This document shows positions 36,210-61,224 of a stretch of DNA of 64,000 nt, one piece after another; within the stretch, counting starts at the first letter, position 1; every line of letters begins with the position of its first letter. Origin of the DNA: Lingula anatina (taxonomy: Eukaryota; Animalia; Brachiopoda); the NCBI GenBank assembly GCA_051362555.1, contig CM120648.1, positions 16,674,587 through 16,738,586 of the forward strand, written 5' to 3'. A program made the position numbers and the translations under genes. The notes beneath the pieces were generated by a model. It was given only the letters and a program-made list of their open reading frames with translations. It made no database searches and was not told the DNA's origin.

Positions 36210-36593
36210 TTAAATTCCTAACGCCAACGGCTCTTCACAAAAAGGCCGATCACTTCCAATTTCCTGTTTCTGTAATTCATCCTCTACATCCTGGCTGCTA
36301 ACTTCTAGTTCATCTGCCAGATGGGAATGTTGGTATTGTCTAAGGGCATCTTTCAAGCATTCGATGGGTCGTTTTTCAGGACTGCTTGCAATTAGTCTTT
36401 CAAACAACTTTCTACAGGCATCATGTGGATTTTCCCTGGCACTATTTCTAAGCACTGTAATCTCCTCATCGGGTATCATATCATATTGATAAAAGAAATT
36501 CAAAATTCTTCCAATGTCAATATGAATTTCTTCAGCAAAGCGAATTCCATTCTGTCTAAGTTTCTTATACTCCATTTCACTCTTAAGTCCACT
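36210..36593 (-). CDS. ROCO gene terminal exon: CARD-like death-fold domain
   Basis: [61 protein letters not shown] matches the CARD helix pattern; AG acceptor at 36594-5, TAA stop. Confidence 0.8.
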   Translation of the reverse strand, partial: SGLKSEMEYKKLRQNGIRFAEEIHIDIGRILNFFYQYDMIPDEEITVLRNSARENPHDACRKLFERLIASSPEKRPIECLKDALRQYQHSHLADELEVSSQDVEDELQKQEIGSDRPFCEEPLALGI

Positions 36594-60500: not shown

Positions 60501-61224
60501 TAAAATTATTCTAAGAATATGCTTATAATATATTTATAATATTATCTTAAGTTTTTTATGATTAATTATTTTCTCGTTTCATATTAGAAAATGTTTCTGC
60601 AGTTAAATCTCTCGACACTTTTACATATACTGTAAACATGTTCTAGTTCTAGTAGTTAGTTGTACACACACAGGAATTACCTGCATGACTTGCCCGGATT
60701 TCCTCATGTATCTTTCTGGTGTTAACAGCAAGCAAACGTGATATTGCTGGCCCATGACACTCTATAAATTAAAATAATAATTTTATTATTTGTCATGAAA
60801 TACAAAGAGACTGAGGTGATCTAGTTGCTGTTAATAAATAATAAACAAGGAGGAATTAAAAGAATTGTCCTTGCAGATTAATAAATATTCAAGTCGTATA
60901 TCAAGAATTGAAATATATGAAGTAAATGAATTTCAATATTGAAACACTTTTTAATTCTTGTACAGTTATTCTTACCGGCTTCATCTGAATTCCAACCCTC
61001 CTTTACAAGAACATAGTCAGTTTCTATACCATTAGTGATTGGATCATTATCTTCATCATATTCCTTTCCGAGTAGCCGTTTTCTCAGGCGTGTTTTACCT
61101 GCACCGTAATGGCCCAGTAGCATCACCCTTGCCCTCTTCACTCTTTCAAAGCCATCCTTACATGCTCGTTGATATGCTTCTTGCAGTAGTGGGTCTTGTC
61201 TATTGATTTCCTCTGAAAACTGAC
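36210..61224 (-). CDS. Multi-exon ROCO-family gene: Roc GTPase-COR-ZU5-UPA-death-like domain-CARD (5' end not identified)
   Basis: 13 GT-AG exons with consistent phases: 61224-60976, 60761-60681, 60457-60392, 59318-59244, 57109-56810, 56235-56096, 55783-54563, 54414-54366, 50778-50150, 39934-39749, 37867-37673, 37464-36826, 36593-36210. Total 4214 nt, ~1,400 codons, no internal stop. Confidence 0.82.
36826..37464 (-). CDS. ROCO gene exon: Q/P-rich linker plus UNC5/MyD88-like death domain
   Basis: [46 protein letters not shown] resembles the death-domain pattern; phase 0-0 exon. Confidence 0.65.
37673..37867 (-). CDS. ROCO gene exon: C-terminal part of the UPA domain
   Basis: Beta-rich [22 protein letters not shown] boundaries, phase 0-0. 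Confidence 0.7.
38030..38717 (+). mobile_element. PIF/Harbinger non-autonomous element (MITE) with a CAG TSD, intronic
   Basis: TIR GGGCCGGTTTCACAAAGCAGTAGTTAGTTAG / CTAACTAACTACTGCTTTGTGAAACCGGCCC; CAG on both sides; remnant transposase start MAATFLAIR... Confidence 0.88.
39749..39934 (-). CDS. ROCO gene exon: middle part of the UPA domain
   Basis: [39 protein letters not shown] boundaries, phase 0-0; bridges the ZU5 and UPA exons in frame. Confidence 0.65.
40145..41745. repeat. 146-bp satellite array (~11 copies) inside family A, copy 1
   Basis: The AGGTCAAAGGTCAATTTCAAGGTCAC motif recurs every 146 bp (e.g. 40288, 40434). Confidence 0.93.
41748..41947. mobile_element. 200-bp palindromic MITE
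   Basis: ~90-bp inverted arms CAGGCGGCTCAGTCCAA... / ...TTGGACTGAGCCACCTG; no clear TSD. Confidence 0.75.
42684..45803 (-). CDS. pol: Intact pol (protease, RT, RNase H, integrase) expressed by -1 frameshift
   Basis: [76 protein letters not shown] slippery site at 45803..45797. Confidence 0.95.
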   Translation of the reverse strand, partial: GKRQSQQKLVSTAGISDAPQISMINMGTITVSDIVTGRTFLVDTGAEESVFPANRFDRQRTSGPSLIAANGTKIPTYGKRKMILKLGKGTKFTQEFWVADVTQPILGADFFTTHRLAIDLSNRKLISLDGKTVIHAHLTRSQQQVIHKVHTRYEAVLEHYPELLVSSFKENKHGVEHHIPTVGSPVKARVRRLDQEKLTAAKMEFKEMENLGIVRRSSSPWSSPLHIVKKNNGGWRPCGDYRRLNDITIDDRYPLPHIQDLNSSLNGKTIFSKIDLIQGYHQIPVAKHDIPKTAVITPFGLYEFLKMPFGLKNAAQAFQRLMDGILQELDCCFVYLDDILIASSTPEQHEEDLKAVFNLLRTNGLVINKKKCVFGQSEVEFLGHSVSAAGVQPLAEKVKAVADFPPPKDKKGLQRFLGMLNFYHRFLPGIAHRIIPLTEATKGRAKTLQWTPECQLAFQDAKMALASATMLHHPEPQAATKISVDASDTAIGAELSQFQSGMWKPIAFFSRKLTPTQKRYSTFDRELLAIYSTIRHFRYFLEGRPFIIFTDHKPLTFAFKSTSDRSPRQERQLSFIAEFTTDIRHISGADNIVPDTLSRAPVETDEPLIASTSTMPTIDLTQLAVSQKTDTKMIELCTNPGSLKFKEVNFGEVKLLCDTTTSRPRPVVPPSMTKIVFEAIHNLCHPGTKPTIRAISSRYVWPGLKKDIRNWVKSCHACQTSKIGRHTRAPLTTFDLPDRRFGDIHVDLVGPLPPSENNKYLLTIVDRFTRWPEAVPLPNAEAVTCAKALLCSWISRFGVPDSITSDQGRQFTSELWRELNKVLGIQPNTTTAYHPQSNGMVERFHRRLKEALKTRLDNARWMDQLPIVLLGIRSTWKEDIDASPALLTYGTNLRVPGDFIPSTTDDKFFPNNEFVQELQQTMQKLAPAPPSRHRQICTYVPVDLQQAEHVYVRHDAHRGTLIRPYDGPYLVISRSDKYFDILRNGQTIRVSVDRLKPAYSNPVSVHNQTVNPQTKPETCLSPSLIKTRSGRIIKKPERF
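45776..46318 (-). CDS. gag: gag (180 aa, CHCC motif; probably carries an in-frame internal deletion)
   Basis: [46 protein letters not shown]. Confidence 0.85.
   Translation of the reverse strand: MDSDGIKQLADAIRQQTLDIYQGSTVQTISAVSFKAPPFWNTNASAWFLRLESSFATHQPAITNDLTKFHHVVQLLDSSTSRRVQSVIERPPQTGKYEALKHALLEAYEATQYQKDTTITDTEINAMKSQHQRTGTIKFKLCKYHSWFGHKARKCEQIIDGCPCPMSTRRQQGNDKASRN
46322..46338 (-). promoter_or_regulatory. Primer-binding site, tRNA-Trp
   Basis: TGGTGACCCCGACGTGA next to the 5' LTR; complementary to the tRNA-Trp 3' end. Confidence 0.9.
50150..50778 (-). CDS. ROCO gene exon: ZU5 domain and start of UPA
   Basis: [48 protein letters not shown] is a canonical UNC5-type ZU5; [20 protein letters not shown] is the UPA start. 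Confidence 0.9.
51219..54265 (+). mobile_element. Helentron/HINE-like family A, copy 2, with a 146-bp array (~51415..53300)
   Basis: Same 5' end and 3' hairpin as copy 1; ~13 monomers. Confidence 0.85.
54563..55783 (-). CDS. ROCO gene exon: end of Roc and COR domain
   Basis: FFAIDN (G5), [59 protein letters not shown]. Confidence 0.92.
56096..56235 (-). CDS. ROCO gene exon: Roc G4 motif
   Basis: [28 protein letters not shown] boundaries, phase 1-0. Confidence 0.88.
56810..57109 (-). CDS. ROCO gene exon: Roc G3 motif
   Basis: [31 protein letters not shown]. Confidence 0.92.
57810..58775 (+). mobile_element. Older, degenerate family-A HINE-like copy
   Basis: One diverged 146-bp monomer, the shared 3' body and the hairpin TACCACCAG..CTGGTGGTAC. 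Confidence 0.7.
59244..60761 (-). CDS. Three small phase 1-1 ROCO exons (60761-60681, 60457-60392, 59318-59244) encoding an insertion in the Roc domain
   Basis: Each has AG/GT boundaries, a length divisible by 3 (81, 66, 75 nt) and an open frame continuous with the flanking Roc exons. Confidence 0.6.
59460..59945 (+). mobile_element. Degenerate family-B-related HINE fragment
   Basis: AAACTTGATCTG sub-repeats, AAAGTGCACGGCAATGGTGACGGCAA and a 3' hairpin TGTATAGACAC..GTGCCTGTACA. Confidence 0.55.
60976..61224 (-). CDS. ROCO gene exon: Roc P-loop (G1) and G2
   Basis: [39 protein letters not shown]. Confidence 0.9.

What the first reader, a model, noticed from the sequence alone, without database searches (positions are those of the whole stretch)
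36210..61224. Roc-COR GTPase fused to ZU5-UPA-death domain-CARD: candidate single-chain, GTPase-gated PIDDosome-like receptor
Seen: 13 exons splice in frame (~1,400 aa) with no stops despite heavy TE load in the introns. All Roc G-motifs ([23 protein letters not shown]) are present, followed by COR, a canonical ZU5, UPA, a death-like domain and a terminal CARD. Established: ROCO proteins (LRRK2, DAPK1, MFHAS1) signal through Roc-COR; ZU5-UPA-DD is the autoinhibited module of UNC5, PIDD1 and ankyrins; PIDD1 recruits caspase-2 via the DD-CARD adaptor RAIDD; NLRP1 and CARD8 use ZU5-UPA-CARD. Inference: this protein joins a GTPase switch, the ZU5-UPA scaffold and both adaptor folds in one chain, so it may be an invertebrate cell-death or innate-immune signalosome using Roc-COR where NLRP1 uses NACHT. 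I know of no described protein with this domain order, but I could not search.
Basis: partly seen in the sequence, partly recalled or inferred. Interest (0 to 1): 0.88.

Follow-up and report, generated by a model that had tools for sequence, protein, structure and literature searches.

The report
Brachiopod GTPase-gated cell-death receptor candidate
This expressed, spliced brachiopod gene encodes a Roc-COR GTPase switch followed, likely in one chain, by a ZU5/UPA-like module and a domain predicted to fold as a CARD, and it likely acts as an intracellular immune or cell-death receptor in an animal reported to lack the usual caspase activators APAF-1 and PIDD.

Summary
The 13-exon minus-strand gene is real: 1,403 codons without a stop and all 12 introns GT-AG. 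RNA reads show six junctions, including 50150-39934 and 36826-36593. The Roc-COR-to-ZU5 junction (54366-50778) was not seen in reads; it rests on five paralog gene models.

Roc, COR and ZU5 are confirmed, and the last domain folds as a CARD (Z 14.2). UPA is likely. The 'death domain' is not confirmed: folded alone it matches no death fold. The 5' end lies outside the window, and paralogs carry an NHL propeller there.

The closest relatives are Lingula anatina paralogs. One uncharacterised RefSeq model holds NHL-Roc-COR-ZU5-UPA-C2-helical-CARD in one chain, whereas RefSeq models only the 3' third of this locus. Amphioxus has a probably independent Roc-COR-DD-FIIND-DD.

'PIDDosome' fits poorly, since Lingula reportedly lacks caspase-2. 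A CARD8/NLRP1-like tail with Roc-COR in place of NACHT fits better. The likely job is a GTP-gated platform recruiting CARD partners (caspase-Y or CRADD); this is untested. Ten literature searches found no description. Verdict: new variant of a known kind.

The parts
60976..61224 (-). First exon inside the window (gene 5'-incomplete): Roc N-half with G1 GHYGAGKT (61114) and G2 threonine (ITNG, 61039)
   Evidence: 96% to P0002 and 94% to P0032, where an NHL propeller precedes it
60681..60761 (-). Exon 2, insertion within Roc
   Evidence: 100% to P0002 aa 394-420; RNA depth over the bin
60392..60457 (-). Exon 3, insertion within Roc
   Evidence: 74% to P0002; read variants at 60431 and 60441
59244..59318 (-). 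Exon 4, insertion within Roc; donor uncertain (P0001 uses an earlier one)
56810..57109 (-). Exon 5, Roc with G3 WDFGGQ
   Evidence: Pfam Roc E 3.4e-7
56096..56235 (-). Exon 6, Roc with G4 THKD
   Evidence: RNA joint 56096/55783
54563..55783 (-). Exon 7, Roc end (G5 AIDN) and COR
   Evidence: Pfam COR-A E 1.4e-19; RNA joints on both sides
54366..54414 (-). Exon 8, COR-ZU5 linker; its junction to exon 9 was not seen in reads
   Evidence: joint 54563/54414; junction present in models P0001, P0003, P0017, P0018, P0019
50150..50778 (-). Exon 9, ZU5 (UNC5/ZO-1 type) and first strand of the UPA-like domain
   Evidence: Pfam ZU5 E 7.4e-19; UNC5B 3g5b E 4.8e-9 over residues 35-205
50267..50278 (-). N-Q-F-C at the position of the PIDD HF/S and CARD8 SF/S self-cleavage site; candidate F|C site, untested
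   Evidence: FC, FS or LC in the 11 related models printed; register against UNC5B is my by-eye reading; chemistry from PMC3210808
39749..39934 (-). Exon 10, UPA-like beta sandwich, first half
   Evidence: RNA loose end into exon 9 and joint to exon 11; Atlas leads
37673..37867 (-). Exon 11, UPA-like, second half
   Evidence: RNA joints
37105..37464 (-). Exon 12, 5' part: low-confidence linker with an N/Q-rich beta-prone motif ITFNVQQV (37158-37135)
   Evidence: pLDDT below 30; 32-49% identity to paralogs
36826..37104 (-).
   Evidence: 68-87% to paralogs; homologous to a second Lingula subfamily, hhalign E 2e-4; no death-fold match
36210..36593 (-). Exon 13, CARD (about 36584-36288), acidic tail and stop

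Best explanation
This is an expressed member of a multi-copy brachiopod ROCO family whose likely single chain (Roc-COR, ZU5, a likely UPA, a helical domain and a predicted CARD) likely works as a GTP-gated intracellular immune or cell-death receptor that recruits CARD-bearing partners. SHOWN: the exon chain except junction 54366-50778 and the junctions within Roc; transcription; the Roc, COR and ZU5 domains; the CARD fold of the last domain (predicted model); many paralog models with swapped modules. INFERRED, step by step: (1) an upstream NHL propeller, as in two paralog models, would be the sensor; (2) Roc-COR would switch between monomer and dimer with nucleotide, as proposed for other ROCO proteins; (3) ZU5 would hold the tail inactive and may self-cleave at Phe896|Cys897; (4) once released or clustered, UPA-X-CARD would nucleate CARD-CARD assembly with caspase-Y or CRADD. 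It would work like CARD8/NLRP1, with Roc-COR in place of NACHT, without belonging to either family.
For: Gene and domains. Selection: 26 of 55 listed exonic read variants are synonymous against 21% expected (alleles and paralogs mixed, best-supported rows only). Single chain: RefSeq P0032 (LOC106163446, 2,077 aa) holds NHL, Roc, COR, ZU5, C2 and the same tail, and matches 11 of the 13 window exons in order. P0020 (99.8% to aa 924-1403) spans the exon 9-10 junction. Module shuffling typical of immune receptor families: NHL plus tail without Roc (P0026), DD-CARD-ZU5-UPA-X-CARD without Roc (P0245), Roc-COR with another tail (P0004). Roc-COR is tied to death signalling elsewhere: at least 41 of 139 scanned relatives show a Death domain, 3 a CARD and 5 a caspase, two of these in Lingula (P0158, P0166). 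Amphioxus P0247 is Roc-COR-DD-FIIND-UPA-DD and sits in another clade. Lingula lacks APAF-1, PIDD, PYCARD and caspase-2 but has CRADD and six caspase-Y (PMC11463336). Cys can be the nucleophile in this type of cleavage, and Gln at the -2 position did not impair CARD8 cleavage (PMC3210808).
Against: There are no functional data. Junction 54366-50778 was not seen in reads. RefSeq models this locus's 3' part as a separate 480-aa gene (P0020), and other models from that assembly run into unrelated-looking sequence (P0037 Endonuclease V; P0019), so P0032 is no proof. Domain X gave no death-fold match. UPA has no Pfam hit. The cleavage site is not the canonical HF/S or SF/S. The NHL exon is outside the window and unverified for this locus. 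The best CARD matches include MAVS and RIG-I as well as Apaf-1 and caspase-9, so the partner class is open. Pfam COR-B (dimerisation half) was not hit. Reads at 90% likeness include paralogs.
Confidence: 0.5

Rival explanations
1. Same chain, but it signals to transcription (NF-kB or interferon-like) through a MAVS- or RIG-I-type CARD adaptor rather than activating a caspase.
For: Top Foldseek rows are MAVS and RIG-I CARDs; RIG-I CARD Z 13.3 is within 1 of Apaf-1 Z 14.2. PIDD controls both apoptosis and NF-kB (PMC3210808 passage).
Against: Roc-COR-caspase fusions in Lingula and Owenia lie nearest by tree distance (2.0-2.3 against a median of 3.0), which links this Roc-COR type to caspases.
Confidence: 0.2
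2. One reading: X is a divergent true death domain, and the chain fuses the roles of PIDD (ZU5-UPA-DD) and RAIDD (DD-CARD).
For: X sits where UNC5 and PIDD have their DD. In the 480-aa model it forms five to six helices. From recall only, its start resembles UNC5/MyD88-type death domains. CRADD exists in Lingula.
Against: Folded alone, X has best Z 6.2 and no death fold among 50 rows. Against a 67-sequence death-domain profile the probability is 0.1-0.9%, and the best single hit is E 0.007. There is one ZU5 and no LRR, and caspase-2 is reported lost.
Confidence: 0.15
3. Two neighbouring genes: a Roc-COR gene ending near exon 8 and a ZU5-UPA-X-CARD gene starting in exon 9.
For: The junction was not seen in reads. 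RefSeq splits this locus (P0020). Models ending at exon 7 or 8 (P0016, P0002) and starting in exon 9 (P0015) exist, and so does a Roc-less ZU5-UPA-X-CARD subfamily (P0245, P0256).
Against: Donor and acceptor are both phase 1, GT-AG. Five models carry this exact junction and P0032 bridges it with extra sequence. P0002 and P0016 end by reading into the intron.
Confidence: 0.08
4. A largely neutral product of exon shuffling in a repeat-rich, recently expanded family, with no dedicated signalling role.
For: Many truncated or chimeric paralog models; a decayed NHL fragment nearby; heavily transposon-loaded introns.
Against: Intact frame, conserved G motifs, spliced expression in all four runs, and synonymous excess.
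Confidence: 0.07

Closest known systems
ROCO GTPases (DAPK1, LRRK2, MFHAS1) and invertebrate Roc-COR proteins with DD, TIR, caspase or GT4 domains
   Same: Roc-COR tandem with G1-G5; a death-fold module C-terminal of COR as in DAPK1 (PMC6337361 passages). Aplysia ROCO-TIR/DD (PMC9334734 passages) and the Owenia ROC-caspase (PMC11463336) are in print.
   Different: No kinase or LRR in the window; ZU5-UPA sits between COR and the effector; the effector is a CARD; paralogs carry an NHL propeller in front.
NLRP1 / CARD8 (FIIND = ZU5-UPA, then CARD)
   Same: ZU5, likely UPA, terminal CARD; Phe plus a possible nucleophile at the cleavage position.
   Different: Roc-COR instead of NACHT-LRR; ZU5 of UNC5/ZO-1 type, not Pfam FIIND; QF|C instead of SF/S; a linker and helical domain X before the CARD.
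PIDD1 with RAIDD/CRADD and caspase-2 (PIDDosome)
   Same: ZU5-UPA followed by helical adaptor domains.
   Different: One ZU5, no LRR seen, death domain unconfirmed, no HF/S; caspase-2 and PIDD reported absent from Lingula.
UNC5B cytoplasmic ZU5-UPA-DD (PDB 3g5b)
   Same: Longest solved-structure match of the ZU5 exon (E 4.8e-9, residues 35-205).
   Different: No transmembrane or extracellular part in the window; UNC5B has Leu where this protein has Phe; a CARD follows.
Uncharacterised database models: Lingula LOC106163446 (P0032), amphioxus LOC118414786/LOC144869582 (P0297, P0247), Amphiura XP_072022457 (P0152)
   Same: Roc-COR and a ZU5-type module in one predicted chain.
   Different: P0032 adds NHL and C2; the amphioxus proteins use FIIND flanked by two death domains; the brittle-star protein has a kinase between COR and ZU5.

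Membership tests
ROCO GTPases | Roc domain directly followed by COR | tested here: met
   Pfam Roc and COR-A; paralog P0017 hits solved Roco proteins 4wnr (E 1e-14), 3dpu and LRRK2
ROCO GTPases | G1-G5 motifs | tested here: met
   identical in P0002 and P0032; G4 and G5 vary in Roc domains
ROCO GTPases | C-terminal COR subdomain that mediates dimers | tested here: inconclusive
   about 185 conserved residues follow COR-A but Pfam COR-B was not hit
ROCO GTPases | GTP binding and hydrolysis | not testable with these tools
   needs purified protein
NLRP1/CARD8 | FIIND-type ZU5-UPA | tested here: not met
   Pfam ZU5 hit, no FIIND or UPA-FIIND hit at E up to 1 or 0.5
NLRP1/CARD8 | SF/S self-cleavage motif | tested here: not met
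   reads QF|C; cleavage still chemically possible
NLRP1/CARD8 | C-terminal CARD | tested here: met
NLRP1/CARD8 | NACHT NTPase (NLRP1) | tested here: not met
   the NTPase is Roc-COR
PIDD1 | Two ZU5 domains, each with HF/S | tested here: not met
   one ZU5 stretch in the window and paralogs; QF|C
PIDD1 | C-terminal death domain | tested here: inconclusive
   domain X has no death-fold match but alignments are shallow (11 sequences)
PIDD1 | N-terminal LRRs | tested here: inconclusive
   5' end is outside the window; paralogs have NHL, not LRR
UNC5-type ZU5-UPA-DD module | ZU5 | tested here: met
UNC5-type ZU5-UPA-DD module | UPA beta sandwich after ZU5 | tested here: inconclusive
   the five Atlas feature rows shown are all UPA/ZU5/FIIND clusters but score 0.75-0.80, lead only; UNC5B alignment reaches the first UPA strand; no Pfam UPA hit; own model pLDDT about 30-55
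UNC5-type ZU5-UPA-DD module | ZU5 binds and silences the death fold | not tested

The most novel reading that the evidence does not exclude
Lingula, which lost APAF-1, PIDD and caspase-2, built a family of GTPase-gated inflammasome/apoptosome receptors. An NHL propeller senses, Roc-COR replaces the STAND ATPase as the switch, ZU5 self-cleaves at a Phe-Cys site, and the freed UPA-X-CARD tail, perhaps aided by an amyloid-prone N/Q motif, polymerises to activate caspase-Y. Amphioxus reached the same Roc-COR-FIIND design independently, which would make ROCO proteins a second, recurrent class of animal innate-immune NTPase receptors beside NLRs.
Probability: 0.3. Interest if true: 0.85.

Novelty: new variant of a known kind. 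Interest (0 to 1): 0.62.

Why it matters
How molluscs, annelids and brachiopods activate CARD caspases without APAF-1 or PIDD is open; the survey I read names CRADD as their only CARD-containing activator (PMC11463336). This family supplies testable candidates in Lingula. It would also give a kinase-free ROCO protein with a direct read-out (CARD assembly or caspase activity) for the disputed Roc-COR nucleotide cycle, and would test whether a Phe-Cys ZU5 site self-cleaves. Limits: this exact order was found only in Lingula, every part is a known domain, and nothing functional is shown.

Tried and rejected
No whole genome is held, so the upstream exons and paralog DNA could not be read. The run search listed no indexed RNA holder; nine raw-read runs came by species label and six of them were laid. 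Junction 54366-50778 could only have appeared as a loose end, and repeats crowded that table.

Death-domain tests on X all failed to match: Pfam, phmmer against PDB, profile against PDB, fold searches of the isolated model, hhalign and hmmsearch against 67 death domains and 8 CARDs. These are inconclusive, not exclusion. UPA was not reached by PDB sequence or profile searches. No RHIM Pfam hit supports the N/Q motif, and its conservation (0.43-0.53) is barely above the rest of the linker (0.28-0.49), so it stays a recalled lead.

A roughly 22-aa Roc-insert exon of P0002 was not found in the window. Complex prediction of ZU5 with the X-CARD tail was not available. Three look-ups of earlier findings returned nothing.

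Literature searches with no description of this architecture. 'COR+ZU5', 'NHL+AP-GTPase' and both LOC ids had 0 hits in the 13 supplements of PMC8195603, one of which was cut when stored. Subscription journals, including a Lingula immune-gene survey that I only recall, and bioRxiv supplements could not be searched.
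Full report
1. Observation. On the minus strand 13 exons (61224-60976, 60761-60681, 60457-60392, 59318-59244, 57109-56810, 56235-56096, 55783-54563, 54414-54366, 50778-50150, 39934-39749, 37867-37673, 37464-36826, 36593-36210) join to 4,214 nt, 1,403 aa and a stop. 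All 12 introns are GT-AG in matching phase. The first exon starts at a phase-1 acceptor, so the gene begins upstream; no NHL-like exon lies in 61225-64000.

2. Transcription. Six of nine listed RNA runs were laid at 90% likeness. In the stranded runs the first mate lies on +, which fits a minus-strand RNA. Joints seen: exons 6-7 (53 reads, 3 of 4 runs), 7-8 (59, 4 of 4), 10-11 (27, 3 of 4), 11-12 (12, 3 of 4, plus 20 at a shifted cut) and 12-13 (48, 4 of 4). Across the 10.2-kb intron, 18 reads of X8 leave exon 10 and continue with 30 of 30 letters of the end of exon 9. These letters encode the Tyr of 'MVYCVND', which I saw only in the window and in P0020 among the models printed. Junction 8-9 and the junctions between exons 1 and 6 were not among the rows shown (15 of 123 joints and 24 of 573 loose ends). 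Paralog reads are mixed in. Of 55 listed exonic variants 26 are synonymous, against 21% expected.

3. Domains. Pfam on nine single exons gives Roc (6e-4, 3.4e-7), COR-A (1.4e-19), ZU5 (7.4e-19) and, below cut-off, CARD_2 (5e-4). The ZU5 exon aligns to UNC5B through the first UPA strand. For exons 10-11 the five Atlas feature rows shown are all UPA/ZU5/FIIND clusters at 0.75-0.80, a lead only, so UPA is likely but not proven. AlphaFold of P0020 with 11 sequences is confident only for the last domain. That domain matches CARDs: Apaf-1 Z 14.2, rmsd 1.7; RIG-I 13.3; caspase-9 12.9; PIDD DD 9.2; profile probability 96%. The domain before it (X, aa 1184-1276) is helical and conserved, and is shared with a second Lingula subfamily (hhalign E 2e-4). 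Folded alone it gives best Z 6.2 and no death fold, and profile tests fail. The 'death domain' is therefore unconfirmed. At the position of the PIDD HF/S and CARD8 SF/S site the protein reads QF|C; the register is my by-eye reading. PMC3210808 (passages and sections 7 and 8) says Ser, Thr or Cys can be the nucleophile in this type of cleavage, that the Phe is needed, and that S295Q did not impair CARD8 cleavage. Self-cleavage is plausible and untested.

4. Family. The four closest hits and all 11 hits are Lingula anatina, so the window is most likely from that species. P0020 (LOC106159320) is 99.8% identical to aa 924-1403, so RefSeq models only the 3' third of this locus. P0032 (LOC106163446) holds NHL-Roc-COR-ZU5-(UPA)-C2-linker-X-CARD in one model, its propeller closest to TRIM2/3 NHL. 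P0002 also has NHL before the first window exon. Five models carry the exon 8-9 junction. Other models mix the parts: NHL plus tail without Roc (P0026), DD-CARD-ZU5-UPA-X-CARD (P0245), Roc-COR with another tail (P0004). Some look like fusions with neighbours (P0037, P0019), so models are not proof. Mean identity to paralogs drops from 91% (COR) and 89% (ZU5) to 61-62% (UPA exons), then 78% (X) and 71% (CARD). Paralogs are 73-81% alike in UPA, so this copy's UPA is an outlier.

5. Other animals. A full search with P0017 gave 4,642 proteins at E up to 0.001; 150 were listed and 139 of these were scanned with Pfam (best five families shown per protein; cut-offs 1e-3, 1e-5, 1e-5). At least 41 show Death, 3 CARD and 5 a caspase domain. 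Two show a ZU5-type module: Amphiura P0152 (Roc-COR-kinase-ZU5) and amphioxus P0247 (Roc-COR-DD-FIIND-UPA-DD). Amphioxus P0040 has a weak ZU5 (E 0.016). In one search ZU5 was annotated on 3 of 120 listed proteins, all Lingula. In a FastTree of 151 Roc-COR stretches (318 columns, midpoint root, no clade test) the Lingula copies form one clade (support 1.0). P0247 lies in a separate clade with other amphioxus proteins (1.0), and Roc-COR-caspase fusions of Owenia and Lingula are among the nearest by distance (2.0-2.3, median 3.0). This suggests, but does not prove, independent fusions and a link to caspases.

6. Mechanism. Most likely (0.5) the protein is a GTP-gated CARD platform: sensor propeller (inferred from paralogs), Roc-COR switch (by analogy; PMC6337361 passages), ZU5-UPA restraint with possible self-cleavage, and a CARD that recruits a CARD partner. 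PMC11463336 (passages and section 7) reports that Lingula lacks APAF-1, PIDD, PYCARD and caspase-2 but has CRADD and six caspase-Y. This argues against a literal PIDDosome and points to caspase-Y or CRADD. Rivals: transcriptional signalling through a MAVS-type CARD (0.2), a true DD-CARD single-chain PIDDosome (0.15), two genes (0.08), neutral shuffling (0.07).

7. Known and new. It is a member of the ROCO family. It is not a member of the NLRP1/CARD8 or PIDD1 families, though it probably works like the former. In print are ROCO proteins with DD, TIR, GT4 or caspase domains (PMC8195603 passages and supplement searches; PMC9334734 passages; PMC11463336), and expanded ROCO repertoires as candidate immune receptors in brown algae (PMC11378527 abstract). 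PMC9573974 (passages) lists no Roc-COR-ZU5 protein in what I saw. Ten full-text searches found no description of Roc-COR with ZU5/FIIND in one protein. Subscription journals, a cut supplement file and bioRxiv supplements were not visible and could bear on this. Verdict: new variant of a known kind; interest 0.62.

Noticed in passing
window 42350-46615: A young Gypsy-type LTR retrotransposon inside intron 9: 276-bp LTRs 99.3% identical, CATG on both flanks, and an open 1,055-aa pol-like ORF at 45851-42687 with a 181-aa ORF before it, on the minus strand.
   Followed up: partly
window 39952-41746 and 51218-53298: Two copies (88% alike) of an element made of 146-bp tandem units (10.8 and 12.9 copies), with a single-unit remnant at 57802-57987. 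One copy ends 18 bases from the 39934 acceptor. Related sequence is very abundant in RNA reads, depth in the hundreds.
   Followed up: partly
window 30946-31310 (minus): Decayed NHL-propeller fragment, 60-64% identical to the NHL domain of the paralogs, with a stop and frame change, 5 kb downstream of the gene.
   Followed up: partly
window 37673-39934: The UPA-like exons of this copy differ more from paralogs (61-62%) than paralogs differ among themselves (73-81%), while ZU5 just upstream does not: accelerated change, or recombination in the repeat-rich intron.
   Followed up: partly
window 37135-37158 (minus): N/Q-rich beta-prone motif before domain X; the second subfamily has IQNIGQLQIN-like text at the same place. 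It resembles a RHIM from recall only; no Pfam support.
   Followed up: partly
proteins P0158, P0166, P0149: Roc-COR directly fused to a caspase in Lingula (two models) and Bcl-2-Roc-COR-caspase in Owenia.
   Followed up: partly
proteins P0247, P0296, P0297: Amphioxus Roc-COR-DD-FIIND-UPA-DD, an NLRP1-like tail on a ROCO GTPase; no SF/S motif seen by eye.
   Followed up: partly
protein P0004: Lingula Roc-COR paralog whose C-terminal tail has by-eye trypsin-like motifs (TCSH, GDSG); no Pfam hit at E 0.05.
   Followed up: no
window 37241: All reads covering this place in four runs, and RefSeq P0020, have Gln where the window encodes Arg: a private allele or an assembly error.
   Followed up: partly
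window 62285-64000, 1-1820, 10686-12932, 34899-35921: Reverse-transcriptase ORF of a LINE-like element upstream of the first exon, and several broken Gypsy-like integrase/gag stretches, one carrying a PHD-finger-like tail; read by eye from translations.
   Followed up: no
window 38027-38763: A transcribed repeat in intron 10, with reads on both strands and fold-back joints.
   Followed up: no
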